Source: Phoronis australis
Lineage: Eukaryota > Animalia > Phoronida
Length of the DNA: 64,000 nucleotides
NCBI GenBank assembly: GCA_002633005.1
Contig: NMRA01000141.1
Coordinates: 607,609 to 671,608, forward strand
Direction of reading: 5' to 3'
A program made the position numbers and the translations under genes. The notes beneath the pieces are model-generated. The model worked only from the letters and a program-made list of their open reading frames with translations, was not told where the DNA came from and did not search any database. Shown here in pieces: positions 16,556 to 61,415 of the stretch; the first letter of the stretch is position 1; each line of letters opens with the position of its first letter.

Positions 16556-17174
16556 TGTAATCAGAAACAGATGTGTGGAATGGGGTAAGACCAAATTTCT
16601 GACTTCATGAAACAGACCCAAGACCAACTAAATAAAAATGTTAGAACTCTAGGCCCTTCTCCGTCCATGTCACGGTCTAAACTTGTTGCGAAAAAAGGCT
16701 TAAGGGTCTATTCAAATTATACTCATCCTACTGTCTCGCACGGCGATTTTTATAATGTAATTATTCGTAGGGCCCTACCGAGAAAAGTATACTTATATTA
16801 TCACACCACGGCAAACTAGATTCAACGTGATAGGCCGATCACCTTCCATCCAGCCATTCANTGTAATCAGAAACAGATGTGTGGAATGGGGTAAGACCAA
16901 ATTTCTGACTTCATGAAACAGACCCAAGACCAACTAAATAAAAATGTTAGAACTCTAGGACCTTCTCCGCCGGCCATGTCACGGTCTAAACTTGTTGCGA
17001 AAAAAGGCTTAAGGGTCTATTCAAATTATACTCATCCTACTGTCTCGCACGGCGATTTTTATAATGTAATTATTCGTAGGGCCCTACCGAGAAAAGTATA
17101 CTTATATTATCACACCACGGCAAACTAGATTCAACTGAACGTGATAGGCCGATCACCTTCCATCCAGCCATTCA
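16556..17174. repeat. Tandem ~305-bp near-identical duplication across a single N (probable allelic assembly artefact)
   Basis: 16556-16860 matches 16862-17174 with small indels; the junction is exactly the n at 16861. Confidence 0.85.
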
Positions 17175-30031: not shown

Positions 30032-30658
30032 TTAAACTGTCTTGATATCTGAGACAGACGAGACCATTATGTTTCTAACTTAAAAAGTTCCATTCACTGA
30101 AAAACATTGCAAGATTTCAATGAGAGGAGAGGTCATGCTGTTGTTCTGAGAAGTGAATGTCATTTCTTGTTGGTATGCCCATTGTATGTGGACCTGCCAC
30201 GAAAATTTGGCATTCCAATTTATTGTAATTGATGTGCCATTTATTTTTGGTCACTTGATGAGTTCACAATATATTAATGCCACAGCCAGTGTAGCCAAGT
30301 TCATAGTCCATGCTAAGAAATGGAGATGTACTGTATTAGATGTTGAACTGTAGTTTTTTGGTCTTTGCATTTCGTTCAAACCAACACCTCTGTATGTTTG
30401 CACAGTGTGTTTATGTCTGTAAAAGTGACGTGGCCTAATTACAATGAATAAATCACTACTTTAAAACTACTGCTAGATGTCATGACACTGTTTTGAAAGC
30501 TTTATTCAATTCCTGTTTTATAAAGTTCCTGGTACAAGGAATTTTCCTTGTTATGGTCAAGTGGCCACAATATTAGATCGTTTGAACCTTCAACTTTCCT
30601 TGAAACTTTGTTGACATCTTTGTTTATGTTGACAGGTGAAGACCTTCAGTGCACTAAT

Positions 30659-30769
30659 ATGGCTGCTAAAACAAAGACACAAGCACCGACGGTGATTCAC
30701 AAAGTCATCATGGTTGGCTCTGGTGGGGTGGGAAAGTCTGCACTAACTCTACAGTTTATGTATGATGAG
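30659..30769 (+). CDS. RALA: Ral GTPase coding exon 1 (P-loop)
   Basis: [37 protein letters not shown] is Ral-specific; acceptor gacag at 30635 implies an upstream UTR exon; donor GAG|gtataa. Confidence 0.96.
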
Positions 30770-31616: not shown

Positions 31617-34476
31617 CTGGGAAAGGATACGAGCGATATGGTTCTTAATCTGCAAAGAGAACAATTGAAAGATGGCTGCCACAGCTCCATCTTACATCCG
31701 ATTTCAACCAAAAATTATAGGCCCCGATGAAACGCATGCTGCGCATAAGTTGATTGAACGAGAAATCGCCTGTATCATGCAAACAAAGAAACAGAACACA
31801 TACTTGGCAAAAAAATTCCCCTGTAAAAATTCTTTGTATGTGTGACATCATCATCAGCAGCTTGTCGTGTTTACTGTGCTTGGGACTTCATACTTGATGT
31901 CTTTGAATGATGTCACTTGTTAAGTAAATATTTTATTTTTTTCTCGTGAAGAGACGAGTCACTTGGTGTGTCATGACAGGCTGTTGATTAAAGCAAGCTT
32001 CTGTGTGCATCTGAATGATTTTATAAGATTTGTCGTGTAAGTGTGAGTCATTAAATGTTGAGTTGTTGACTAAGTGCAAAACCAGCTTCATGATGGTAAT
32101 GTTGACTTGACCTTGTAAATTTGACTTTTTTATGAATGTAAAACGTTGAAACTGATAATAGGCAGTGGCACATCCTAATCAGTCCTCTATGCCGGAACAT
32201 TTTCTGAAAATTACGTTTAACTCTGGGTAATCTATCAAAGTATACATTTTGAGAAGAGACATTTGAAGTCTTTAAATACTTCCAGCTCAAACAAATACCA
32301 TCGCTATCAACATTTTTCCCAATAGTCCTTCATTCTGTCAACAAAATTGAAGACTGAACTCTATTACAGTCAATGTGTTCAAGGTCAAACGGAAACGTAC
32401 AGCGGCGAGTTTTGGGGAGGTCACCCGTCTGCTATCCATGTCGAGAGGAGGCAGCACAGACGGGGGACCTGTTCAAGTTTGCTGATGGATACCAGTAGGA
32501 CCCAGGGAAAAATGGTCTACTGAAGAATATGTGTCATTTTCTCGGTTCTTTCCTGTTTGATCAATTTAAAAATGTTGTTCTGTTGTTGAGAAACTTACTA
32601 TGATGTATAGATGGAATGTAGTTTTCCAGCGCATCAATTTTTCACACCATGTGAAATGACAAATTCCTATTGTTTCACTGTCTGTTTGGCATTTCACAAC
32701 TGTTTGTGGATGGGGTGCTCTATTGATTTGTCAGCCAGTTCCCTGGCAGCTGTGCAGTTCATGGATAAATGTCTCCAGTGGATTAGTTTCCCGGAGTCCT
32801 GCCTGTGCAGCTTGCCAAGAGCCAAGCATCCAGTGAGCCTAATTAACACAATTAGGACTGGCTCGTAATAAAAGTTTGTGTTGAGTGCAGTCCATATTGG
32901 CCAGGAACGGATGCTGCTAGGTCATGTAGGGTTAATTAACTGTGGAGTGCTTGTACCAGACTAAAACCCTGAGGCAGTGATAAAAATTAACTGCTAGCAT
33001 TCCCTAAACCCCAACAAGAAGAAAACNNNNNNNNNNNNNNNNNNNNNNNNNNNNNNNNNNNNNNNNCTGGGAAAGGATACGAGCGATATGGTTCTTAATC
33101 TGCAAAGAGAACAATTGAAAGATGGCTGCCACAGCTCCATCTTACATCCGATTTTTACCAAAAATTATAGGCCCCGATGAAACGCATGCTGCGCATAAGT
33201 TGATTGAACGAGAAATGGCCTGTATTATGCAAACAAAGAAACAGAACACATACTTGGCAAAAAAATTCCCCTGTAAAAATTCTTTGTATGTGTGACATCA
33301 TCATCAGCAGCTTGTCGTGTTTACTCGGCTTGGGACTTCATACTTGATGTCTTTGAATGATGTCACTTGTTAAGTAAATATTTTATTTTTTTTCTGTGAA
33401 GAGACAAGTCACTTGGTGTGTCATGACAGGCTGTTGATTAAAGCAAACTTCTGTGTGCATCTGAATGATTTTATCAGATTTGTCGTGTAAGTGTGAGTCA
33501 TTAAATGTTGAGTTGTTGACTAAGTGCAAAGCCAGCTTCATGATGGTAATGTTGACTTGACCTTGTAAATTTGACTTTTTTATGAATGTAAAATGTTGAA
33601 ACTGATAATAGGCAGTGGCACATCCTAATCAGTCCTCTATGCCGGAACATTTTCTGAAAATTACGTTTAACTCTGGGTAATCTATCAAAGTATACGTTTT
33701 GAGAAGAGACATTTGAAGTCTTTAAATACTTCCAGCTCAAACAAATACCATCGCTATCAACATTTTTCCCAATAGTCCTTCACTCTGTCAACAAAATTGA
33801 AGACTGAACTCTATTACAGTCAATGTGTTCAAGGTCAAACGGAAACGTACAGCGGCGAGTTTTGGGGAGGTCACCCGTCTGCTATCCATGTCGAGAGGAG
33901 GCAGCACAGACGGGGGACCTGTTCAAGTTTGCTGATGGATACCAGTAGGACCCAGGGAAAAATGGTCTACTGAAGAATATGTGTCATTTTCTCGGTTCTT
34001 TCCTGTTTGATCAATTTAAAAATGTTGTTCTGTTGTTGAGAAACTTACTATGATGTATAGATGGAATGTAGTTTTCCAGCGCATCAATTTTTCACACCAT
34101 GTGAAATGACAAATTCCTATTGTTTCACTGTCTGTTTGGCATTTCACAACTGTTTGTGGATGGGGTGCTCTATTGATTTGTCAGCCAGTTCCCTGGCAGC
34201 TGTGCAGTTCATGGATAAATGTCTCCAGTGGATTAGTTTCCCGGAGTCCTGCCTGTGCAGCTTGCCAAGAGCCAAGCATCCAGTGAGCCTAATTAACACA
34301 ATTAGGACTGGCTCGTAATAAAAGTTTGTGTTGAGTGCAGTCCATATTGGCCAGGAACGGATGCTGCTAGGTCATGTAGGGTTAATTAACTGTGGAGTGC
34401 TTGTACCAGACTAAAACCCTGAGGCAGTGATAAAAATTAACTGCTAGCATTCCCTAAACCCCAACAAGAAGAAAAC
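31617..34476. repeat. Tandem 1.4-kb near-identical duplication across an N gap (probable haplotype assembly artefact)
   Basis: 31617-33026 matches 33067-34476 with scattered SNPs, separated exactly by the N run. Confidence 0.9.
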
Positions 34477-36386: not shown

Positions 36387-36647
<261 letters not shown>

Positions 36648-37436
36648 TAAGTGAACGAACTAATTGACGGAGAATGGAGATGTCACTGCTCACTAGGCGG
36701 CAGCAGTGAATCAACAGTACTACCCATATTCATAGATGCAGTTTGCCGCTGTTTAACTTTCAATGTTGATTCCTTGATCGAATCACTTTGGGTTTGAAAA
36801 CATTACTGTACTCATCTGATCTTGAATTGTTGGCGAATGAGCCGGCAACTCAAGTAACAGGCAATGCATAGATGCACCATTTTCAAAATTGCAATTTTAG
36901 AGTTGGCCAACCCCAACAAACCCTGAAGTGCTCTTTTTCTTGTCGCGAGTGGTTTTGACTTTCGTTGTTCTCGGTAGAAACAAAAACAGAACCCTTTCAC
37001 GGCAAAGAACATTATGAGGCTGATTTTAGCTAACTGAAGAGGGCAAAATGCAGCTTTAAATGTTTATATTCAGAGAGTCCGTTCTCTAAAAAGAGTATCT
37101 TCTCTTCATCAGCATCATGTAGTGAATGTGTAGTAACCTAATGTTTGTGCGTCAATGTGTTATGCACATTCTGTCAAGGTTGCTTGTACTTTTATTTCGT
37201 GATTTTATCAATGGTAGGCTTACTTGGTTTCCTCAACAGTGTTCTTGAAAATAATTTGTCCTTGTATTTTTAAAATTCTTCGAATACAAGCCGTAGCTGT
37301 TGTCCGCTAATTAGGACAAAATGGTGCTTCCATGAATGTAATGGGGACTGTGTTTATTTTCAGTCTCATTCATGAATGATATATTTGTGGCCATCGTGTT
37401 TCACTCGTTGTCATGAAGGTTCTCTGCTGTTTCCAG

Positions 37437-37611
37437 GGAACAGATTTTACGTGTGAAAAATGATGAAAATATACCATTTCTACTGGTTGGCAATAAAGCT
37501 GATTTAGAAGAAAGGCGACAGGTGTCACTAGGTGATGGACAGGCGCGTGCAGAACAGTGGGGAGTACCCTACGTTGAGACTTCGGCCAAAACGAGGGCAA
37601 ATGTTGATAAG
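37437..37611 (+). CDS. RALA: Ral GTPase coding exon 3 (NKxD and SAK motifs)
   Basis: [29 protein letters not shown]...[14 protein letters not shown]; acceptor ttccag, donor AAG|gtaacg, phase 0. Confidence 0.97.
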
Positions 37612-38559
37612 GTAACGGGAACACCTGTGTCTGTGTTGTTAATTATAGGATAAGTGTTGCTGCATGTCATTGGGCATACTTAAAAATAAAAATGAAAATA
37701 AAAATAAAAATATACAAATAGCATCTAAGATTAACTCGTTGGTTTGTTAGAATTTAAAGTGGAAAGGCATTATTTTTAATGTTATTTTCTCTAAAATTAC
37801 AAAAAATACTAATTTCCAGTTACATGAAGATACATTTGGATGTTAATTCAAGTGTTCTGATGGCTTTTATTGACAATGCATACAAACTTCATTCCATGAA
37901 ACGATTAATTGTTGTGAATGTGTTATTTCTCCATTCCATTTCAGTGAACAAACACAATGGCTGACTTGACTGTCACTGTGTGAGTTCAATTAGTCATTGC
38001 ATTCGCTCAATGAGATGAAACTTGGAAATGTGTCAGTTGCAGCAGAACATTGCCAACCTGTGCTATTATTGAAAATAACATAAAAAATGTTGGCTTTTTA
38101 CTTAACATTTAATTTGTTGGTGACACTGTTTAATATCCAAACAAGGTAGTTTAGTTTTTAGGCATGCTTCTGTGTCTTTCAGTCTTTTTGCTGAATTAAA
38201 GTTAAAATTATTTTTTCAATGTTCTTATAGCTTAGCGTTATCTGCTCCTGTGACACAGCTCAGCGCAATCATTTACTTCACCAAATCATTATCTCTGTGG
38301 CAGTACTAGCTTTTTCTGTGCTCAAAACTTGCATTTTTATTTTCAAATTTCCTCTGTCGGCCAAGTGCAGGAATACATGCTAAACTGCCAGATACTCTGA
38401 AAGTGTGCATGACTAGAGTCGGCAATAATTATTCCAGATCACCTCGTGAGTGCGTCGCTGGCATACGAAATCTGACAGTCTCGCGTTACTAAATCCACCG
38501 CCTCCAAATAAAGAACAGCTTCTTTAATTTTTTGTATTTGCATTTGATTTATTGCAAAC

Positions 38560-39385
38560 TGTATTCAGTTAATGTAAAGCTGCTATATTCGAGTTTGACA
38601 AGTAAGGTGCTAAAATTCCAATTAAAAATCAAATATTTCATATTTTAGACATCAAAATGAATCACAATTTTTCGATTCTGCAGGTACAAAAAATCCCCCA
38701 AGCCACGTGTCCATGCATTCTCTAAAATAAAAAGTAATTGCAGGTGGTCTGATTCACATGGTACTGGACGTGCGCAGGTCACTCAGGTGCCCATTGCACG
38801 GATCACCGGGAACCATTTTTGGGCTTTATTAATTGTTAAAACTGAGCTGTGGAGGTGGAGACCTGACTCATGGGTATAGCAGTGCTGTCCAGTGGGACTC
38901 AAAGTCACGATCTTGCGTAAAAGGAGTGGCCACCTATCCCACTAGGCCAGACTGCCGCCTCTAGGCCACACTGCCTCCTCTAGGCCACACTGCCCCCACT
39001 AGGCCACACTGCCTCCTCTAGGCCACTCTGCCCCCACTAGGCCACACTGCCTCCACTAGGCCACACTGCCTCCACTAGGACACTCTGCCTCCACTAGGAC
39101 ACACTGCCTCCACTAGGACACACTGCCTCCACTAGGACACACTGCCTCCACTAGACCACCCAGAATTCTTTAGCACTAATAATGAAAATATTAATTAGTG
39201 TCCTCAGAAAAATCAAATCAGTGATTTTTGTTAAAGAATGCAAGGACATGTGGAGATTTTTTCGTACCTGGGTCGCAGATAATTTGTTTTGCTGTAGTGT
39301 ATAGCATTCCAAAAATCATACTAATTTGAATTTTAGCCACCTAATTCAACCAACTCGACTACAGCAGCTGTAATAAGTCATTTCA
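38560..39385. mobile_element. Long inverted-repeat element enclosing a SINE-like head and a minisatellite
   Basis: caggtacaaaaaatcc...cacgtgtccatgcattctctaa pairs with ttaaagaatgcaaggacatgtggagattttttcgtacctg; outer arms gctaaaatt / aattttagc also pair. Confidence 0.65.
38942..39154. repeat. 19-bp minisatellite, 11 full copies (ctaggccacactgcctcca)
   Basis: Units start every 19 bp from 38942 to 39132, plus a partial unit at 39151. Confidence 0.95.
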
Positions 39386-39677
39386 TTGTGTATCGTTAAC
39401 TTCTGAATTTTGTAAGCATTTTCTGAACATTCCAACAAGACAGGGCTTTCGTTGGCCTCATTTTGTCAGATTTTGTTTGGGGCAAGAGCAATAAATTGTC
39501 GCGGCCATCAGTCTTCTCAACATTAGCTCATGTTAACCACTGCAAATATCAGTAGGTGTTCTCCACTACTGGATATTTAGCTGGTATTGTGTAGTTTTGC
39601 ACGACCTTAACTGAGTGATGCTTTAGTTTTTTGTGTTGTGTCCCGCTTGACCCCGTACTAACGTTGGTTTGTTTTAG

Positions 39678-39809
39678 TGCTTTTTTGACTTGATGCGAAT
39701 TATGTCAGAGCGAAAGATGGCCGCCTCAGGCCAGTCGACGCGTCGCCACACGGAGCAGAAAGACACGGATAAAAAGCCTAAAAAGAAACGAAAGTGCACC
39801 CTACTGTGA
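39678..39809 (+). CDS. RALA: Ral terminal exon 4a (proximal), CAAX = CTLL
   Basis: Branch point tactaac and acceptor gttttag; phase 0; CFFDLMRIMSERKMAASGQSTRRHTEQKDTDKKPKKKRKCTLL*. Confidence 0.85.
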   Translation, partial: CFFDLMRIMSERKMAASGQSTRRHTEQKDTDKKPKKKRKCTLL

Positions 39810-42800
39810 TTTCTCTGCATTTTGAATGTTATAGTGTTGTATGACGAAGGTACTAACCTGGGTTTGGGAAAATGAGCATTGAAGCTTTCATTTCCTCAGA
39901 GACCTGTCCTTCCCATTGCCTTTCTGAAACTCCTATATTTGTTCATTTTACCCTCTCTCAGCCTTGTCTTGTATCATTGTGTCTTCGAGGCTTTTCTTGT
40001 CACTCTCTGGGTGTTGCGGTGGAACTTCTTTGTGCTGTTTCTACCTTTGCATGTGTGTTCCTTATGTGGTGATAGACTCTCTTGTTTACCTGCTCAGTTC
40101 TGTCTGCTTACTTGATAGGTAATTGTAACCTTTTTTGAATTTTCAAAAACACAACATTCACATATTATGTAACGTGTCTTTATGTTCTGTTAAACCCATG
40201 ATATGTCTTTAAATTAGCTGTTTACCGGACAGATTGGTTGAAATTTCACACATTCATATTATGGTCGTGGTCGAGGGAATCATTTTTCAGATTTCTGTTT
40301 TTTTTTCCGGGACATGAGTTCCACGGCTAAATACAAAGTAATTACTATGAAGATATCGGCTAACGAAAATGATGGTTTGGGCCAATCTTTTAAAACAGGA
40401 ATAAGATTTTGGTGGGTGGTAGCTCAGTTTTTGGGAGAATGTAATGGTATGAGGCACGGTTTGTTGCACACGGACATTAAGAATATAGAGTTAAAACACT
40501 GTTGGCCACAGCTTCATAGTTTCTTTCAGAAATTCAAGTTCAGAGCAAAAATGAAAAATTTCCATCACATATGATTGTGCGACATTTTCAATGGAGGATA
40601 CAGAAATTATACACTTTCATGGGTTGAAAATGGATGGTTAAAAAGTTATTGAATGAACCGTCAAAAGAATTCATGAAGGTTAATTTATTACCTTTATTGC
40701 TATGCCTATTCATTGATTCATTAATAGTTTAACCTCTTTATGCGCTTTCTACAGCAGTGAATAGTTTTAATACTAGCACAAAATCAATCTCCAACTCGCT
40801 GCTATTGATGACAAGAGTACAATCATCTTCATCCTACACTCTAAGTAAATTAATGGTGGTCTCATTTACATAGATATTAGTCTGCTTAGCTTCCAACAAC
40901 TCGAGTGTGATCTCATCAGTCAGCGTGAAGTAGCTTTTATTTTTTGCAAAAGTTCCAAGGGTCTAAGCAAAAAAATTCCGCTTGGTCGCAGGCTATTAAA
41001 TTCAGAATCAGTTGTATGTAAAACATTTTGAAACCAGCTGTGTTTGGTTGACACAGGAATTAACGAGGTTATCATACTTAATATCAGATTTAAGAATATG
41101 ACATTGACTGAAGGTTGCATTACTCCTTCAAAATATTGAAATGAAATTATCAAACACTACAGTTTGACTACAAATATACTATGTCTCATTTAAATCATGA
41201 GTATTCAAATTTGTATCAAGCGCCTCCTATTGACTTCCTGGAGAACTGTGTGTAAAGAAACAATTTGTAAAGAAATTGCAGAAAATTATACCACAACTGA
41301 TACACTTAAAACAAGTTTGAACTTACAAAAATCCTAGCAATTATAAATATTACGCAATTGTTATTTGATAGTGAAATCAACAATTAATAAAAATTGTTTT
41401 GCGTTCAAGGCGTAAGGTCTTAGTGTGTACAGAAGCTGAAGGCCACCAACAACTGAGGTCTAGCTGCTTGACCGACCGACACTCCTTCTGATGATCACAA
41501 TAAAAGTATTTGAATTTTGTTATATAATTTTATTTTGCCGTCACCTTGGACATCATTCAGTATCATGCCATTTTGCATCTCTAGTAGTGCAAATTCTAGG
41601 TATTTGCACACATTTCTTGTCCATATTTCACAGGACGACACGGAATTCTTGGGAAACCCCCACAGGATTGTTGTTACCCTAATGAAAGAAGGCACAGTTT
41701 TTATTATTTGTTTATTTCACTGTCAAATAACAATTGTGTAAAATTTGGAATTACTTGGGTTTTTTTAAATGCTCATTTTTGTTTTTAAGTGAATTAGTTG
41801 TGTTGTTTTCTTTAAAACTGCATTTATTTACAAATTGTTTCTTTTCCTGATTATACTTGTACTCACTGTTCTCTCAGAAGTCACTAGCACTTGCTACAAA
41901 TTTGAATATTCACGGTTTTAATGAGACGGAGCATATTTAAATACCTTGTTCACGCGAACCTGGTTATTAATATTAAAACCCATTTGAAGGTTCAAACTCT
42001 AAACCTGTTTTTTTAAAAGTTGTAACTGTAACAGGGTTATAACCCTCTCTGAGGGTGGTTTAGCAAGGTGTTAGTACCGTTTTAAGTGTGCGAACACAGA
42101 AGTTACAGAAGCATTAAACCACTGGATGACCATGTCGTTAAATCTCCATGGAAGTAATGAAGCGCAGAAGCAGTAACACTGACCTCTAGTGGCCGAAGCC
42201 ACAAACCAGGGTTACAACAGTTATAACTGTCAGTGTGAATGATAAATATGGCAGTTGAAACTATTGAAAGAGTTGGTGTGAACTCAGCTAATGCCTGGTC
42301 ATGGTGTTGACATTGTATCATAAGTCACACTTCTTTCACAACCAGTAAGGTACTGCTGCTGAAAGGTATATTGAGTACTGCTTAGGTAACATGGCTATTA
42401 CCTTGGGACATCCTGTTTCTCACATTTGCTAGTGTCTTAGTCTTGTGTTGTTTTGGGGTTAATAAATGGCTTCATTCTGATTTCATCTTACTTCAGTTTT
42501 GGTCATCTTTGACCCACCAATGTAGAGTTCACTATTATATAGCACTGTAATACTGTCATGGCAAGTGAAGCATCCAGAATGTGACTATTATTTCATAACT
42601 TCTATTATTATGTCTTTGTTATGAGCTTGTCACGTAATACTTAGTAATAATAGCATGTTTGCATTGCATTGTGTTGTCCTATTAACCAGTATTTCAACCT
42701 GCCAGTTATTGTTTGATCTAATTTGGACTGTCTTTGTCCATATTGCCTTTTGGTGGGTAGGTTACGTCAACAGATGTAGTTACTATTCATTTCATGTTTT

Positions 42801-43862
42801 GTCAAAGCTTACAATTTCCTATTTTTTAATGCCGTTCTATCTCAATTAACGTTTTTTCATGTACGGAGATATGTGTTTTACTGTTTCCGTTTGAAAATAC
42901 CAATTTAGTGCACTGTTGGCATGATGGGAAATCCTGTTGTGTAACAGGGAGCTTTAAAGAATTGTGCCTTTTATTTAATTACAATAATTTTTTCTAACCT
43001 TTCTGTGACGAAATATTCTTGCTGGCAGCAAAAATCTAACTCTGTGAAAGTCACGAGATTCTTCACAATTGAGGTTTTCAAATTGCATGATATTGTGTAC
43101 AGTATTCATCGGGGTTATTGCCTATGGTGGTTAAATTTGGAAATTCAAGAATCTGGATGGCCATGGGGATTCGACATTGGTCATTAATGCTAACAGCAAA
43201 CTGTTTCAAACAAATGGCTTCACCATTGTTTTTGCTCACAAGTACTCTAATGCCTGTGAGCCAAAAAGAACCATTTCGCATCTCCTTCAATCAGCAAGTA
43301 GTGGATATGCAGTGCTTAGCCTAACGATAGTGGCGCCACCGTTAGGCAGTATCAGCATGCATCCTCAGTGTAGAAGTGTAATGTGATCATTATAAAACAG
43401 TAGAACAGTGTAAGGGATCTAAAAGATTTGATGAAGAAAACAAAGAAAATACAAAACTTAGGCTGTTGACAAGGTTATAATTTCACCTCAGAGTTGCTGG
43501 GTGGCTAAGTTACTGGAATCAGTTAATGTATTAGTTCTTTGGTTAAAACTGTAGTGTATTCTGTAGAACAAGTTGTTACAAGTAAAGCAAGATCATGCAG
43601 GCGAGTGTTTCGCAAGTTTGTACGTAACCTTACTAGCGAAATGGTCGCCTCTGAAATGACTGGTCAGTGAGACTGGAATGTTGAATTATGTTCTGTAAAA
43701 GCAAAGACCTCTCATTGCAAGTGTTTGGTGAATGTCTCGTATTACGGAACACATCCTGGGTTTACCCACCATGCAGGTCACTTGTGCCTTTCCTACTCTC
43801 ATGATTTCTTGTTGTGTCGGTGTGATATTTATTACAAATGACATGGTGTTCTTGATTTTCAG

Positions 43863-43976
43863 GTGTTTTTCGATTTGATGAGAGACATTAGAAAACGGAA
43901 AGAAGAACCGACGAATCAGGCAAATGCAAATAAAGATAAAAAGAAGAAAAAGAAAGCAAAGTGTGTTATACTGTAA
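43863..43976 (+). CDS. RALA: Ral terminal exon 4b (distal), CAAX = CVIL
   Basis: Acceptor attttcag; phase 0; VFFDLMRDIRKRKEEPTNQANANKDKKKKKKAKCVIL*. Confidence 0.92.
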   Translation: MFFDLMRDIRKRKEEPTNQANANKDKKKKKKAKCVIL

Positions 43977-45122
43977 TACAAAATGTGTGTTATACTGTAA
44001 TGAATAAGTAAGACTCACATGACATTTAATGGAGAGTAGGCAGTAATGGAATGTCCTACCCAAGTATTTACGTTTGCCAACCATAAATGTGACAGGTATC
44101 TTAGACGATGTTGTACAAAACGAAGTATTCTTCTTTGTCTTGGAAATCACAGGTGAGCACTTGGCAGACAGAAGTCTTTGTGGAAAGTCGACATAGCTCT
44201 CCTTCCGAATCGGTACTTTGTTGGTAACTTGATTTTGTGTGACGGGCAATTCCTGCGGACTCTGGTTAATTAAGCGCATTACCTACCAGTGGCGCTGAAC
44301 GTTGCTATTCTAAACTTAAAAAGTGGAAGTTAACGATTTGGTTTAATTCCTCGTAAGACATTAAGCTGGTTTGATGGCACCGTGACGTCCATGAGTGTAG
44401 CAATGCTTAAGGGCAAGATCCTTCAATTTGGGAGTTAATGGTGGTAGTGTACTTGAGTTTAATTTGCCATGTTTTTCATCAAAATGTACAGTTAAGTTGT
44501 ATTGGTTTGTACTGTGCTTCTGTTGTGAAACAAAAGGATGAAATTTGGAACTACCAACACAGAACTGTGTACGGAGTGACTCTTTGAATGTGGGAAGTGG
44601 GCGTGCAGTAACCTTGTTTGTCTGAAAGTGAAGAATCTTAGATTTGCAAGTCGGTGTTTTTGTATTTGTGGGATAGTGCATGCCTGTATTTAGAAGCTAG
44701 TCTGTTCGCACTATTTCAGGTATAATGGCCTTTGGTTAACGCTTTCACATAGCCACTTTTGAAATGTTTGCTCAATGATGTATGTGTATATAAAAAATCT
44801 AGTGCTTAAAGTTAAAAAATCTTTGTTTTCCAAATTACTATCAAAATCATAAAGTTTGAAACAAAAACTTTTGGCAGATATGAGGTTAAAGCAGCAAGAC
44901 TTTCTAGAATTATTTGTGGCTTATGCAACTTATAGTGAGAGAGCTTAGAAAAATCCTTGGGAGTTCTAGACTGTCAACTTCATGTCAAGTGAAAAATAAG
45001 TAACCCCTTTATGTATGTTTGTATCTATATTATATTACTATACTATGAATGATTAATTTATATATGTGTTAATATAAGTATATAATGCAGAACCTCTGTT
45101 GGTTGTTTTATTTTGAGGTCGC

Positions 45123-45918
45123 TACACACCTTATTCCCGCTGTTGCCATTTAAGTGAGGCTCTTTTTAAGTTTTAAAAACGATGTGTTCTGCGCTAAATT
45201 ACACTGCAAAGCGTGATTTTTTTGCGGGCCTTGTTACATTTATTTCTCACATCAACTGTAATGTGTTATGACACCACCGGTTAGTAACACAGGGTATGTA
45301 ATTATTTTGATGTTACATGGGCAAATCACAAAATAGTGCAAAGTACAAATCCATACGCCTTACATTTTATCGTCTGCAAAACGCTAAAACAACCAAACGC
45401 GCGCCAACCACACAATGCCGGAATTCCAAGGTGACAAGATTATGATTGACAAATCGGGTGTCGCAACTGTACGTATTCCCAGTTGGAAGGATATGCAAAC
45501 TACTTCTTAAATGGACCCACCTTCGGCGGCGAATTCCATATCCACGTTCATTCAAACGGAGACGAACCCCAACTCAAACGCGGCGAGACTGTCTAGCTGT
45601 CGACTTATTTATAAACATTTTTTAAGTTTTAACATTACAACTTCAAAGACTATTCATTAAATTCTAACATGAATATTTGCTAAGAAAGCTGAATGCAATT
45701 TGTTAAGCTTAAAATAAAACTATTAACTGAATTACTGTACATTGCTCAAGCTTTACAAAAGTTACGTCGTGTGGAAAGCCTCTGGATTTTGACGAAATTT
45801 CCAAGAGGTTTTGCCCATATCATAAGCCTGAGACTCGTGTAAAATTCTCAAATGCATCGTTTTTTAACCTAAAAAAAGGCTCACAACTAAAATGGCGACT
45901 GCGTGAATAAGGTGTATA
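45123..45918. mobile_element. Non-autonomous TIR DNA transposon downstream of Ral
   Basis: TIR acaccttattcccgctgttgccattt vs aaatggcgactgcgtgaataaggtgt. Confidence 0.75.
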
Positions 45919-49871: not shown

Positions 49872-50047
49872 TTTTTAATTATGAAAGCATTATGCTACCC
49901 GTCCTGTTATCAAACAACAAAATTTTCATTTTTTTCATAATACTCTCATCTGCCTTTGTTCTCAGTGAAATTTTTATAAAAACACAAGGTTTGCAATTAT
50001 GAGATTTGATTGATCTTGGAATGCACATCATGGAGTAATGAAGCAAC

Positions 50048-50185
50048 CTCATGAGCGCGATGTCTTCGTTCCACTTTCTGTTTATCTCCAACAGACGTTG
50101 ATGTTCTTCCTTCTCCCGATGGTCACTTTCCATGGCTTTCACTCCAGAATTGTCCTCAGACTGGACATCCTTGGCGAACAGTTGG
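50048..50185 (-). CDS. MRPS26: mS26 exon 2
   Basis: Acceptor tttccag, weak donor AG|gttgct; QLFAKDVQ...EEHQRLLEINRKWNEDIALMR resembles mS26 EH..L...N...N......R. Confidence 0.85.
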
Positions 50186-51196
50186 CTGGAAATAGCACAC
50201 AACACAAAAGGCTGGCTTTGAAATGCAAAACAATTTAAGTAATAAAAGAAAATATGACATTGAACAGAAACAAGATCATCACATAAAGTTGATAATACAG
50301 TGAAAAACACTAATATTGCATTACAAAAACAAATACAACTTCAGGGAGAGACAAAAGTAAAAAAATGAATGGGATATATAATTGTACTTTTGACAGTGTG
50401 TTTATCTTCAATCTATCATTCACAAGAAACTGCTCCCATACATATTGTTTATTATGATTTATTTGATCCCTGAAAGGTAAATTGGCTGAACATTCCCATT
50501 ACAGATCCAGGTATCGAGCAATGTAGTTGCCTATACAGCTATGTTAGCAACAAGACCATCATGACTTGATCATTTAGACTTAAGACGTAATTTAAGCAAA
50601 TGCGTTCGGCATACGAGGGGCTTCACCGGCCCAGTTCAGATGGTAAGCATGGCCTACATAGGTGTATGGTGTTTTCTCTAATAGTTTGTACACTTAGTTC
50701 GCACACGGCCCTTGAAACATAGCGTTTGTCTCTATTTCGTACTAGAGTCTAAGGGCGAGGGAAAAATAGTTCATACACATATTTGCATTAGAAAAATAAT
50801 TTTACAAGCTTTTTGGCAAGGTAAAATGAAAATTTGTATTCTTAAAAAAGAACACAAATCAATAAGTGCCAGTTCTATTCGGGTAGGTTTTAGAATCTGG
50901 GATAGGTGACGTCCCTGATTAAAAGTGATTTAAGATCAGTTACTCCCACTAAATAACAACTGGGAGTGACTGGTTCTCTAATCACTTTTAAACCCAGAAC
51001 CCATCTATTTGACTATTACCAGGAATCTTGTTCAATGTTTTTTACTAAAAACCTAAAAGCCAAAGGGAATTTGGGCACTGAATTTGGCGCTTAACACATC
51101 AATCACACTGACAAGATGACATTCCTTGACCTTGAACTGTTGATTAGTGCTAACATTAACTGAATTAATCAGTCAAATGAGTAATAAACTTCATAC

Positions 51197-56548: not shown

Positions 56549-57618
56549 GTAAGGATGGAATTTTTTCTAAGCATGTCTTCGCTTTAGTAGGCTAAGTAAA
56601 TAATAATTGTGTTTGACAACTGTAAGCTTTTTGTTTACTCTCTCGACCCTTTTTAGATGAAAGATTGCTCTGTTGTAGCGTTTCTGCTTATTCATCAACA
56701 AGAAAGTGTTACTATAACACAGGGATTTTCTAAAATATTATCAACAGATATCTGGGTATATAGAATCCGTCCCTTTATCTCCCAAACCAGTCAGTGGTTC
56801 TTCATAAAATTTTGCAGACTTGTTTTGTGTCATTGATAGGATGGTACACCCTTATTCTAGTACTTGTCCAACTCTTGTGCCTGCCTCTACCCAGTTCATA
56901 GATGGAGTTTAGTGAAATTTGACAGATGTGTCATCTGTTAAAAACAGATGACACCTGCCCATTTTTGAATAGATGAGACCCATGGTTACCCCCTATTGGC
57001 AACTAGTATTTTGGTGTGTTTTTGGCATCTGCCTCTTTACTGGACAATTTGTTTTTGTCCGCAAAGTCTCTTGGAATGAACCAAATAAGATCTTAAGAGA
57101 TTTTAAGCTTTAAAAAGCTTTTGTCATTACAAAGTTTGTCAGTGTCTCTAAAAACTTCTTGCAATTTTTTTTTCCTTTGACATATTGAAGACGTCATAGG
57201 TAACTAGTCTAAGGATTAAGTTGAAAATGACATAGAAACCTGTTTTTAACTATTGACAGCACGTCAGTGGCATAAGATATGAATATAATTGTGAAACAAG
57301 GGCCTGTTTCTGGAAAAGTGACTTAAGACTGAAGTCAGAAGTTTGGTCTTTGGGTCCACTATTTCTGAATAATAATTGAATCTCACTTAAGCAAAATTAC
57401 TAGGTGTATGAAAGTGTATACATAACTCCTAATTACGGACTGTACTTTCTATAAATTATTTCTAGATTGCTATGTGCTCATAATTGTTTGCTTCAACCTT
57501 TATTCAGCAATTGTTACGGGGTGGGGAACTTAAGGAAGAACAAATTTCTTACTTAAAAACAGAACCTAGGCCTCTACAGTACTCTCATTTTTGAACCTCT
57601 CCACATTTTTCTTTACAG

Positions 57619-57961
57619 AGGCCTCAGTCTGAGAGACATTGCTAAAGACGTTCTGGAGAAAGACTTGCAGAAATCATTCCTGATCCGTTGTGGAAACTGG
57701 GAGGCAGCAGAACTTTCGGACGAGCAGATTCAGTACGCCGCTGATGATGCTTGCGTTGCCATGGATATATTCACCAGCATTGTTGCCAATAAACTGGGGC
57801 ATGACGCCTCTTTGGATAATCTCTTGGACTACTACTCGCACCCTTACGCTCAAGATCTGGATAATAGCATTGTCACGGAGTTCAACAAGAAAGCGCTCTC
57901 CGTTTGCCAAGGAGTTGTCGACGTGAACTTTAGTCCCTCCTCTGGTGGAGGCTTCTCCAGA
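57619..57961 (+). CDS. EXD2: EXD2 exon 5
   Basis: GLSLRDIAKDVLEKDLQKSFLIRCGNWEAAELSDEQIQYAADDA...CQGVVDVNF; donor AGA|gttagt. Confidence 0.9.
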
Positions 57962-58129
57962 GTTAGTCACCTTTTCGTTGTGTTTTGTGCGGCCACCAGC
58001 GTCCAGTCTTGGCCGGTCAGTTTTATTTGACTGGTCATATCTAGTCTTAATTTTTAATTGTTGGGACATGACGTTCAGGTTTTATTCGTTCACATTATAA
58101 CTTGTGGTTGTAACTTTAAGTTATGTATG

Positions 58130-59320
58130 TCCGTAGGGCCTGTTTCGCCACCCATATTTCCTAAACCCTTCACCAGATCTTTATAAAATTTCTCAGGTTT
58201 GGTCCTACGAGTATGATTTTTCACGACTTTTAGACTAATTTTGCTTTTGCTGTGCTATTTGGTGGAAATAGTATTTTTTTTTGTTTACTTTTATGTCTGC
58301 CAAGTCTCTAGATGGATCTTTACCAAACTGGGCTGATATCTTTTTATGTCGGAGAGTGTATTACCCGACAATTTTCGAATGACCCTTTTGTATTGTCTTT
58401 ACTGGGTTTTCGGCATCTGCTTTTCTACCTACCTAACGGTTGAATGGTTGTCATGAATTTGAGGCATATATTCTTATTGACAAGAGCTTGTCTGACAACG
58501 ATTTTCGGACGGATCCGAATTGGTCTTTGCCCCCCCTAGTACCGGTATAGGTGAATGATTATTGTACAATTTGACGGAGATGTGTCTAGGGAAAAGAGCA
58601 TGGTTGACATTGATTTTTTCAACGAATCTGACAGTGTCTATGCCCTCAAGTGCACTTTTATTTTCTGGGCCTGCATCAGTAAATTCTTTATACGATCGTC
58701 TTGCAATTTAGTCAGTGCTAACTAGATGGGGCGAATTCAACAACTTTCTTGACAGATATGTTGTATTAAAATGAGCCGTCACCTGGCTATTTTTGCACTG
58801 TTCCATAATTTTATACACCATCTTGTAGGGTCTGTTTTTGGCATCTGCCTTTCTATCTGAAAAACGGTTTCAAGAATTGGTTCAGAATTTGACAAATATT
58901 GACTATAACCTACCTGCGTCACCGTCACATTGATTTGTAAACTGTTTTGATTGTTACCATACCCCCTAGGGGCAATTTCTGGTTTTTGCGTTTGTCTCAA
59001 TATCTACCTGAAGGTTGATGAAGGCTCTTTGTGAAGTATGACAGAGAAGATTTTATCTTAGAGAGATCAAAACTTAGCCATTTTCGACATTTCTGACTTG
59101 TGATATGCACCCTAGAGGCAATTTTAATAGTTTTGTCTTCACTCATATCTTTCTGCCAAACCCCTTGATGAATCATGGTAAATAAGTTTCTTAAGTTTCT
59201 AATAGGTGAGGATGACTGGCTTCAATTATTGGTTGGATAGCAATCTCAATATCTACTAGGATTGCATTTGCCGATTATTGGTTGAGTGGCAGTGCCCCCT
59301 GTTGACTCAGTTTAAGTTCA
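58130..59320. repeat. Highly degenerate tandem-unit repeat of probable transposon origin; similar patches near 30850-31190 and 56760-57050
   Basis: Recurring motifs ccccctag/caccctag, ttttggcatctgcct and gaaatttgacaga at roughly regular spacing. Confidence 0.45.
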
Positions 59321-59640
59321 CTAGTGTTGCTCACACTAGAATGTGGAAATATTTGAAAAAATGAGCATAATTTATTTCTGTGCCTCTTTGTAATTTACAC
59401 TGTGAGTGCATAGCAACGTTCTGCATTGCTCTGCTTGAACGGTTGCTGCAGATTAATGCTTTAACTGTATTTAGCTACCATCACAAACTATTTTGAAAAA
59501 TTGTAGGCTTCCACAAAAATGTTAGAAGATTTTGAGAAATAAAAAAACAATTGCAATAAATATTTAAGTCAGAAATTGGTTGGATTAAATTTACCATTTT
59601 TTGAGAATCAATTTTGAGAAGTCGCTTCTTGTTATTGTAG

Positions 59641-59812
59641 AATGCCAACAACTCATCCTCCGGCAATAAAAGTAACTTTAACAACTTTAGAAGTTACACG
59701 ACGCGCAAGATGCCTCTGTACCACAACTGTCAGTTACGTGCTCCTGATGGACAGCTGCTGTGTACTTGTGATGAGAAGAAGGCACTGTGGTACTTGGGAA
59801 AAGGACTGGCTG
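59641..59812 (+). CDS. EXD2: EXD2 exon 6
   Basis: ...YTTRKMPLYHNCQLRAPDGQLLCTCDEKKALWYLGKGLA, an EXD2-specific block; donor G|gtatga. Confidence 0.93.
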
Positions 59813-61415
59813 GTATGACTAGAACCATATTTGGTTTGTGGTGGGAGCTTTCTAAGTACTCGAGTGGTACGCAGAGCGTGGATTTTTCCTCTTTTAAGAA
59901 AATTCCCTCTCTTGGTTTGGATTTCCTCTTATTTGATTTCCAGTTTCTTCCTTCTTTCGTCTCTTTTTTTATCATTATTGTGAGTTTATTCACGCAAAAC
60001 GTTTATTTCAGTTAAATGTTACAACACAAAAAGTCTTTCTATCACACAAACCTATTTGTGGAACGATACATCACCTTGAAAGTTTTTCTCTTGTCATTGG
60101 TTATTCCAAGCCCTGGGTTTGGTAGTTTACGAAAAATTGCAAAACCTTGTTGAAGCCTAGCTGCATCAATGTTGGAAGAAAATTCGTTGAAATGTTCGGC
60201 GATCTCCCTGAAAAATTGGGTTTCTCAGAAAAAACGCAATCTTGTGTTATTACTTTTGTGCACATTATAAGATTCTGTGATCATCTATGTTTTATGGGTC
60301 TACTATTAATACTTTAAAAGTTGCATAAGAAATTCAGTAGTTGGTAACAAAAGTGTTCTGTTATTAACTTACAAGGGAAAGCAAAAAGATTTATTTTGAG
60401 ATTACCTTTTACTGAATGGAGAATACTTTCTATGTGTTAATTGCTGTTCTCCTGCTGTGTCTTCACTATCCATGCTATATTGGAAAGTTTCAGTTTCAGT
60501 TTACTGCTTGCACGAATTCACCATTATGCTTGAAAATGAGGTGTTGTGTCCAAAGAGGAAGTAATATCCTACGTGACATTATTCCCCATATCGACCTCGA
60601 GATATTGTGTCCATACTGCAAATGATAATACATACACAAAACGTACCAAAAATGCCATAGATGAAGTAATATCCCACGAGACATTATTCGTCGTATTGAC
60701 CTTCGGTTTCTGTCTATACGTGGATTAATGTAGAGCGGAATATTATTTTGTCTATGCCAATCAAGGTACATTTTGTTTTTATCCCATATGCTTGGAATTC
60801 TTAAGTTTCTTGAGTTGCATATGATATAATATTTAGCAAATAAAACTGACACAGAAGTGTTATATTCATCAACAGTTTTGTACCAGACGTTATGTATGGG
60901 ATCTAATTGCATGTTGAGTGTTATTTATACTGTTGCACTTTTATTACTTTAAACTATTTTGGGGCAGTTTGATGATCGAACCGGCTAACGGCGTCAAGTC
61001 GACATTGAACTGCCTTTTGGACTTTCCATGCCAGAGGACACAGTTAAAGTAATCCATGGAGGGAAATACGGAAAACAATATCACATGGCCGTATTGCACT
61101 GATTCAATGTGTGTGAGATAAATGTTTGAAACACACGTACTTTCACGCTTGCGATGTTAATTTTGAAGCTAAAGCGAGTTTACAGTGCCACCAAGTGTGC
61201 AAGTATTGAATTATGGCTCTGAGAGCAAAAAATGCAAGAGACACAGCAATTAAATCGAGGAAATGTCTTCCCCAAATCACCAGGGATATGTAATTTTAGT
61301 GAAAGTAGTTTAAGAAGCGTAACTATAGTAAACCACGTGTCCAGATCTCAGCTCAGTGGTGTCTCCGTCACTAACTTTGTTTGTTCATTGCCATTTTGAC
61401 GTCTCTTGTTTTCAG

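What the first reader, a model, noticed from the sequence alone, without database searches (positions are those of the whole stretch)
39678..43976. One Ral gene with two mutually exclusive terminal exons: a KRAS4A/4B-like membrane-anchor switch
Seen: after the phase-0 donor at 37612, two separate phase-0 exons each restart the conserved xFFDLMR helix and end in their own polybasic tract, CAAX box and stop. Exon 4a reads CFFDLMR...STRRHTEQ...KKPKKKRKCTLL and exon 4b reads VFFDLMR...KDKKKKKKAKCVIL. They are strongly diverged yet both intact, which argues against an assembly duplicate. Known: vertebrate RalA and RalB differ mainly in this hypervariable region, KRAS makes 4A and 4B by an analogous exon choice, and CAAX boxes ending in Leu are GGTase-I substrates. 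Inference: this lineage may obtain RalA/RalB-like diversity from one gene. Exon 4b has a KRAS4B-like hexa-lysine run with no Ser/Thr beside it, while 4a has a PKA-type RRxT site that could allow phospho-regulated localisation. I cannot tell from here whether this has been reported.
Basis: partly seen in the sequence, partly recalled or inferred. Interest (0 to 1): 0.85.

Follow-up and report, generated by a model that had tools for sequence, protein, structure and literature searches.

The report
Ral gene with splice-switched membrane tails
One Ral signalling gene in an invertebrate animal makes two RNAs with different last coding exons, by the same include-or-skip design as human KRAS4A/4B, which likely gives two proteins with different membrane anchors; database records of five animal phyla show a second Ral tail at the same point.

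Summary
Both exons are real and both are spliced. RNA reads join exon 3 to 4a (16/8/10 reads in three runs) and to 4b (31/24/47). So 4a (39678-39849) is not a terminal exon. It is a cassette whose stop lies 40 nt before a donor; when it is included (about 20-37% of transcripts), 4b becomes 3'UTR. Human KRAS exon 4A is spliced the same way. The feature is not special to this lineage: 18 named species in five phyla (molluscs, nemerteans, an annelid, amphioxus, ants and wasps) have database isoform pairs with an identical core and different tails from the same residue. In 13 of the 18 the second tail is low in charge with an extra Cys, like KRAS4A or Cdc42-palm. Here both tails are polybasic CxxL, so the switch is probably milder. 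Whether 4a is an old exon or a fresh duplicate could not be resolved. The PKA-site idea is untested and the motif is not conserved. Eight literature searches found no paper on Ral tail splicing. Verdict: real, a new member of a known kind, moderately interesting.

The parts
30636..30769 (+). First coding exon of Ral (ATG 30659; G1 P-loop); 5' edge inferred from an AG acceptor only
   Evidence: loose read ends at 36436 match this exon's 3' end
36438..36646 (+). Coding exon 2 (Ral effector loop, G3)
   Evidence: Pfam Ras E 3e-21; up to 97% identity to listed hits, most named Ral; junction to exon 3 in 52/37/83 reads
37437..37611 (+). Coding exon 3 (G4, G5); its phase-0 donor at 37612 is shared by both tails
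39656..39662 (+). TACTAAC, likely the branch point of exon 4a
   Evidence: role inferred from position 15 nt before the acceptor
39678..39849 (+). Exon 4a: cassette exon, 172 nt; codes helix 5, tail and CTLL; stop 39807-39809; 40 nt untranslated before the donor at 39850
   Evidence: ex3>4a 16/8/10 reads, 4a>4b 16/20/14 reads; loose ends
39851..39857 (+). Second TACTAAC lying inside the 4a donor site; possible regulator site
   Evidence: function untested
43863..43976 (+). Coding part of last exon 4b: helix 5, six-lysine run, CVIL; 3'UTR when 4a is included
   Evidence: ex3>4b 31/24/47 reads and one X1 contig
43977..45090 (+). Shared 3'UTR; end approximate
   Evidence: depth 41-131 in the bins 43925-44827, falling in 44828-45128; X1 contig ends at 45090

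Best explanation
This Ral gene has a duplicated last coding exon: skipping exon 4a splices exon 3 to 4b, while including it adds an earlier stop and turns 4b into 3'UTR, so the gene likely makes two Ral proteins (202 and 208 aa) with the same GTPase core and different predicted geranylgeranylated, polybasic tails that would tune which membranes Ral sits on. Shown: the three junctions, the inclusion level, the shared UTR. Inferred: translation of the 4a form, its escape from nonsense-mediated decay (stop 40 nt before the last junction, inside the recalled 50-55 nt rule), prenylation by GGTase-I (recalled Leu rule), and different localisation. 4b is the default tail (net charge +7, six Lys in a row). 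4a is six residues longer, less charged (+5) and richer in Ser/Thr (6 against 1), so it would bind membranes more weakly and be more open to phosphorylation.
For: Junction reads in 3 of 3 raw RNA runs, on the gene's strand, GT..AG ends. Inclusion 0.34, 0.37, 0.20. Both exons keep helix 5, a basic tract and CaaL. Both read variants listed in the 4a coding part are synonymous. 18 of 19 hand-picked same-species record pairs have an identical core over the last 140 aa and different tails from the same residue. KRAS uses the same cassette layout (PMC5945503). Ral tails carry the prenylation and phosphorylation sites that set localisation (PMC9139244, passages).
Against: No protein or localisation data. 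The three raw runs are one study with unknown tissues; exon-3 junction choice does not differ significantly among them (chi-square p 0.15). Two synonymous variants are weak evidence of selection. No orthologue of 4a itself was found (0 hits, a weak search), and no genome of this species or a close relative was available. Both tails are polybasic CxxL, so the functional gap may be small.
Confidence: 0.75

Rival explanations
1. 4a is a regulatory 'poison' exon: inclusion sends the RNA to decay and lowers Ral dose, and the coding look is a leftover of duplication.
For: Its stop lies upstream of an exon junction. Decay rules in invertebrates may differ from the mammalian 50-55 nt rule (recalled).
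Against: Inclusion stands at 20-37% in steady-state RNA. Helix 5, basic tract and CAAX are kept despite about 55% best identity to any other tail. 2 of 2 coding variants are silent.
Confidence: 0.08
2. Both proteins are made but behave the same; 4a is a redundant duplicate of the canonical tail.
For: Both end in polybasic CxxL with no extra Cys. 4a scores closer to canonical tails (mean 82) than to other species' second tails (mean 50).
Against: The tails differ in length, charge and Ser/Thr content; RalA and RalB differ in localisation through such tail residues (PMC9139244).
Confidence: 0.15
3. One reading: two mutually exclusive terminal exons, each with its own poly(A) site.
For: X2 and X3 show a bump of depth 11-16 at 39908-40060, so a minor 4a-terminal or retained form is not excluded. 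In another, unnamed animal the two tails share no 3'UTR (L005/L009).
Against: 4a>4b reads equal or exceed ex3>4a reads. Depth at 39857-39907 (8/6/5) matches the upstream intron (8/2/7). The bump's reads carry several differences from the window and are low in X4.
Confidence: 0.02

Closest known systems
Human KRAS exons 4A/4B
   Same: Upstream cassette exon with its own stop, spliced onto the downstream exon, which is then untranslated; the included form is the minor one (PMC5945503, passages). Split before helix 5 at a phase-0 intron (PMC9882654, passages).
   Different: Different gene (Ral). KRAS4A is palmitoylated and 4B polybasic (PMC7680328); here both tails are polybasic with no extra Cys. 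KRAS 4A is proposed to be a copy of NRAS exon 4 from jawed vertebrates, so the two cases are independent.
CDC42 prenyl/palm isoforms (exons 6/7)
   Same: One small-GTPase gene, two spliced tails differing in basic region and CAAX (PMC9868626, passages).
   Different: Rho family; Cdc42-palm has CCaX. That resembles many other invertebrates' second Ral tails, not the 4a tail here.
Invertebrate Ral isoform pairs in RefSeq/GenBank (Haliotis, Mytilus, oysters, Octopus, Biomphalaria, Lineus, Tubulanus, Owenia, Branchiostoma, Linepithema, Vespa)
   Same: Same gene, same split residue, one canonical polybasic tail plus a second tail.
   Different: 13 of 18 second tails are low-charge with an extra Cys. 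RNA layout varies: in ant-like transcript L017 the second tail starts right after the first tail's stop; L005/L009 share no UTR. These are automatic annotations; I did not check their splicing.
Vertebrate RALA and RALB
   Same: Same core with different hypervariable tails (PMC9139244). Tail position 17, RalA S183, is Ser in 4a and Thr in 4b.
   Different: Two genes. Both end in CCxL. Neither tail here can be assigned to RalA or RalB.

Membership tests
Ral subfamily of Ras GTPases | Ras G domain with G1-G5 motifs | tested here: met
   All motifs found in exons 1-3; Pfam Ras on exons 2 and 3
Ral subfamily of Ras GTPases | Closest named relatives are Ral proteins | tested here: met
   Exon 2 is 93-97% identical to most named Ral-A records among the 120 listed
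Ral subfamily of Ras GTPases | C-terminal CAAX for geranylgeranylation | tested here: inconclusive
   CTLL and CVIL present; the modification itself cannot be tested here
KRAS4A/4B-type tail switch | Two homologous last coding exons behind one donor, both spliced in | tested here: met
KRAS4A/4B-type tail switch | Upstream exon is a stop-containing cassette joined to the downstream exon | tested here: met
   4a>4b 16/20/14 reads
KRAS4A/4B-type tail switch | Palmitoyl-Cys tail against polybasic tail | tested here: not met
   No second Cys in the last 10 residues of either tail; net charge +5 and +7. The pattern is present in 13 of 18 other species' pairs.
KRAS4A/4B-type tail switch | Tissue-regulated ratio and distinct localisation | not testable with these tools
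   Tissues of X2-X4 unknown; p 0.15 among runs
Mutually exclusive terminal exons (alternative poly(A)) | The two exons never occur in one mRNA | tested here: not met

The most novel reading that the evidence does not exclude
Ral carried a KRAS4A/4B-style splice switch of its membrane anchor long before KRAS did: the bilaterian ancestor made a polybasic and a second, often Cys-rich tail from one gene, most invertebrate lines kept or rebuilt it by different splicing routes (cassette with stop, adjacent acceptor, separate last exons), and vertebrates traded it for the RALA/RALB gene pair.
Probability: 0.35. Interest if true: 0.7.

Novelty: new member of a known kind. Interest (0 to 1): 0.5.

Why it matters
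A survey of the RAS superfamily, apparently the human set, found only KRAS and CDC42 making alternative membrane-targeting tails (PMC9882654, section 13). Invertebrate Ral would be a third case, and a widespread one. It means that invertebrates with a single Ral gene may run two differently anchored Ral proteins, so studies with one cDNA can miss one. It also offers a natural test of how tails alone split Ral function, a question usually asked with RALA against RALB, and an example of the same splicing design arising twice.

Tried and rejected
Assembly duplicate: rejected. Third tail exon in the window: none. Own poly(A) site for 4a as the main route: rejected. Direct search for 4a orthologues: 0 hits from 1 candidate, weak evidence. 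No genome held, so paralogues in this species and dN/dS were not checked. The run search listed no indexed RNA holder; this is no evidence either way, and the raw runs were laid instead. Origin of 4a: two tail trees (47 rows x 42 columns; 27 rows x 40 columns after dropping 16 long or redundant rows) placed it differently with no starred support; AU tests rejected neither 4a+4b (p 0.60) nor 4a+annelid-type second tails (p 0.52). My canonical/second labels were set by likeness, so their clustering is circular. In some searches the row 'Magallana_C' is in fact a Saccostrea cucullata record. Dropped from counts: the Magallana gigas pair (9 core differences); L047/L049 (87% nucleotide identity, may be different species); barnacle records (one tail each). 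Cassette signature in 80 metagenome loci: 1 of 80 held two tails on one contig (L017). Atlas look-up of a neighbouring gene gave nothing usable. Earlier findings of the scan: none. A structure or complex prediction was not run; it would not bear on a disordered tail.

Full report
Observation. The window holds one Ral gene on the + strand. Coding exons lie at 30659-30769, 36438-36646 and 37437-37611. Two phase-0 exons follow, 4a (coding 39678-39809) and 4b (coding 43863-43976), each restarting helix 5 and ending in a basic tract, CxxL and a stop. Joined in a script they give 208 and 202 aa. An HMM made from other species' Ral tails hits only these two among 2922 six-frame peptides (E 4e-13 and 8e-14; next 2.6), so they are not chance and there is no third.

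RNA. Three raw RNA runs of one study (X2-X4, 18-19% of each read) and one contig set (X1) were laid on 36400-45400. Exon 3 joins 4a in 16, 8 and 10 reads and joins 4b in 31, 24 and 47. A third junction, from 39849 to 43863, has 16, 20 and 14 reads. All are GT..AG and on the gene's strand. X1 shows only the skipping form; contigs drop rare variants. Exon 4a is therefore a 172-nt cassette with its stop 40 nt before a donor, and 4b serves as 3'UTR when 4a is used. Inclusion is 0.34, 0.37 and 0.20; the choice at the exon-3 donor does not differ significantly among runs (p 0.15). A finer lay shows depth just past the donor (8, 6, 5) like the intron before 4a (8, 2, 7). A bump at 39908-40060 in X2 and X3 consists of reads with several differences from the window, so a minor 4a-terminal form is not excluded. 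The only two variants listed in the 4a coding part are silent; that is weak support for selection.

Tails. 4b is the canonical kind: it scores 103 on average against canonical tails of other invertebrates and 50 against their second tails. It has net charge +7 in the 15 residues before the CAAX and one Ser/Thr past residue 13. 4a has +5, six Ser/Thr and six more residues; it scores 82 against canonical and 50 against second tails. Neither has an extra Cys for palmitoylation. Tail position 17, which is S183 in RalA, is Ser in 4a (context RKMAAS, like RalA RKMEDS) and Thr in 4b. The RRHT motif (T190) is present, but RRx[S/T] is found in only 3 of 15 second tails and 0 of 14 canonical ones (p 0.22). 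That PKA prefers RRx[S/T] and GGTase-I prefers a terminal Leu is recalled, not tested.

Organism. Not identified. The best G-domain scores go to Capitella, Lineus, Owenia and bivalves with small margins (759-749 of 844), so it is likely a lophotrochozoan. No genome is held.

Relatives. An exon-2 search gave 1164 hits, of which 120 were listed; cluster look-ups added more. From about 230 stored proteins I picked by eye 19 same-species pairs with different tails. 18 have an identical core over the last 140 residues and diverge at the same residue as here. They span Mollusca (12 species), Nemertea (2), Annelida (1), Cephalochordata (2) and Hymenoptera (2), less the dropped Magallana pair among the molluscs; congeners are not independent, and this is a selected set, not a frequency. 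In 13 of the 18 the second tail has an extra Cys near the end and net charge 3 or less; in Haliotis, Octopus and Owenia it is polybasic, as here. Only one tail was seen for Ptychodera (three isoforms), Aplysia (four), Lingula, crinoids, aphids and the vertebrate records listed; capped lists do not show absence. These records are automatic annotations. Layout differs among animals. In L017, whose protein matches named ant records, the second tail begins directly after the first tail's TAG, which could serve as an alternative acceptor. L005 and L009 share 633 nt and then nothing, which fits true alternative last exons. A Biomphalaria gene model strings the second tail before the canonical one, the order seen here. 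I recall 201 and 197 aa isoforms for Drosophila Rala; no call checked this.

Origin. Unresolved. One tree put 4a among canonical tails, another beside the Mya second tail, neither with starred support. AU tests rejected neither a local duplication (p 0.60) nor kinship with annelid-type second tails (p 0.52). Second tails are no more alike among themselves (48) than to canonical tails (49), which fits either great age or repeated origin.

Mechanism. Default splicing goes from exon 3 to 4b. Recognition of 4a gives the longer tail with the same UTR apart from about 150 added nt. The stop is close enough to the last junction to escape decay under the recalled 50-55 nt rule. 4a has TACTAAC both at its likely branch point and inside its donor; these are two of three + strand copies in 64 kb, though the window total (8) matches chance (7.6). 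A STAR/Quaking-type regulator binding there is a guess from a recalled motif, noticed after the fact. Different membrane targeting is inferred from the role of Ral tails in vertebrates (PMC9139244, passages).

Known systems. PMC5945503 (passages) states that KRAS 4A and 4B are not mutually exclusive in mRNA, because 4A carries a stop and 4B follows untranslated: the layout found here. PMC9882654 (passages and section 13) dates KRAS 4A to jawed vertebrates and names only CDC42 as a second case among 167 superfamily members; the word Ral does not occur in its main text. PMC7680328 and PMC9868626 (passages) give the palmitoyl-against-polybasic logic. For C. elegans ral-1 the two isoforms described differ at the N-terminus (bioRxiv 2025.08.28.672893, passages). 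PMC8373072 (passages) treats C-terminal duplicated-exon swaps as a known human class. Searches listed no paper on alternative Ral tails; I saw listings only for most hits, the library lacks most subscription journals, and I read no supplements, where exon catalogues could list fly or insect Ral.

Verdict. The feature is real and expressed. It works like KRAS4A/4B in splicing but lacks the palmitoyl contrast. It is already visible as isoform labels in databases for other invertebrates, and I found no paper on it. New member of a known kind; interest 0.5.

Noticed in passing
window 31617-33026 and 33067-34476: 1410-nt direct duplicate (98.9%) on both sides of a 40-N gap in Ral intron 1; likely an unmerged overlap of two haplotypes. 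Similar pairs flank single Ns at 16861 and 46142.
   Followed up: no
window 41172-41397 and 41694-41938: Inverted repeat pair (73%) in the intron between 4a and 4b, with reads from both strands and strand-switching joints; likely a MITE-like repeat.
   Followed up: no
window 38939-39159: 19-nt minisatellite, 11.6 copies, about 520 nt upstream of 4a.
   Followed up: no
window 57557-60015 (+): Exon with a 3'-5' exonuclease domain (Pfam PF01612, E 8e-8); this and a second ORF look like EXD2 by recall.
   Followed up: partly
window 49882-50340 (-): Exon matching mitochondrial ribosomal protein S26 (PF14943, E 3e-5, below the curated cut-off).
   Followed up: partly
L017 681-902: Ant-like Ral transcript in which the second tail's reading frame starts right after the TAG that ends the first tail; the stop codon may double as the splice acceptor.
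   Followed up: partly
P0079, P0098, P0104 (Magallana gigas records): Oysters may have three Ral tails: canonical, a short CC tail and a long CC tail; the cores of P0079 and P0098 did not match exactly.
   Followed up: partly
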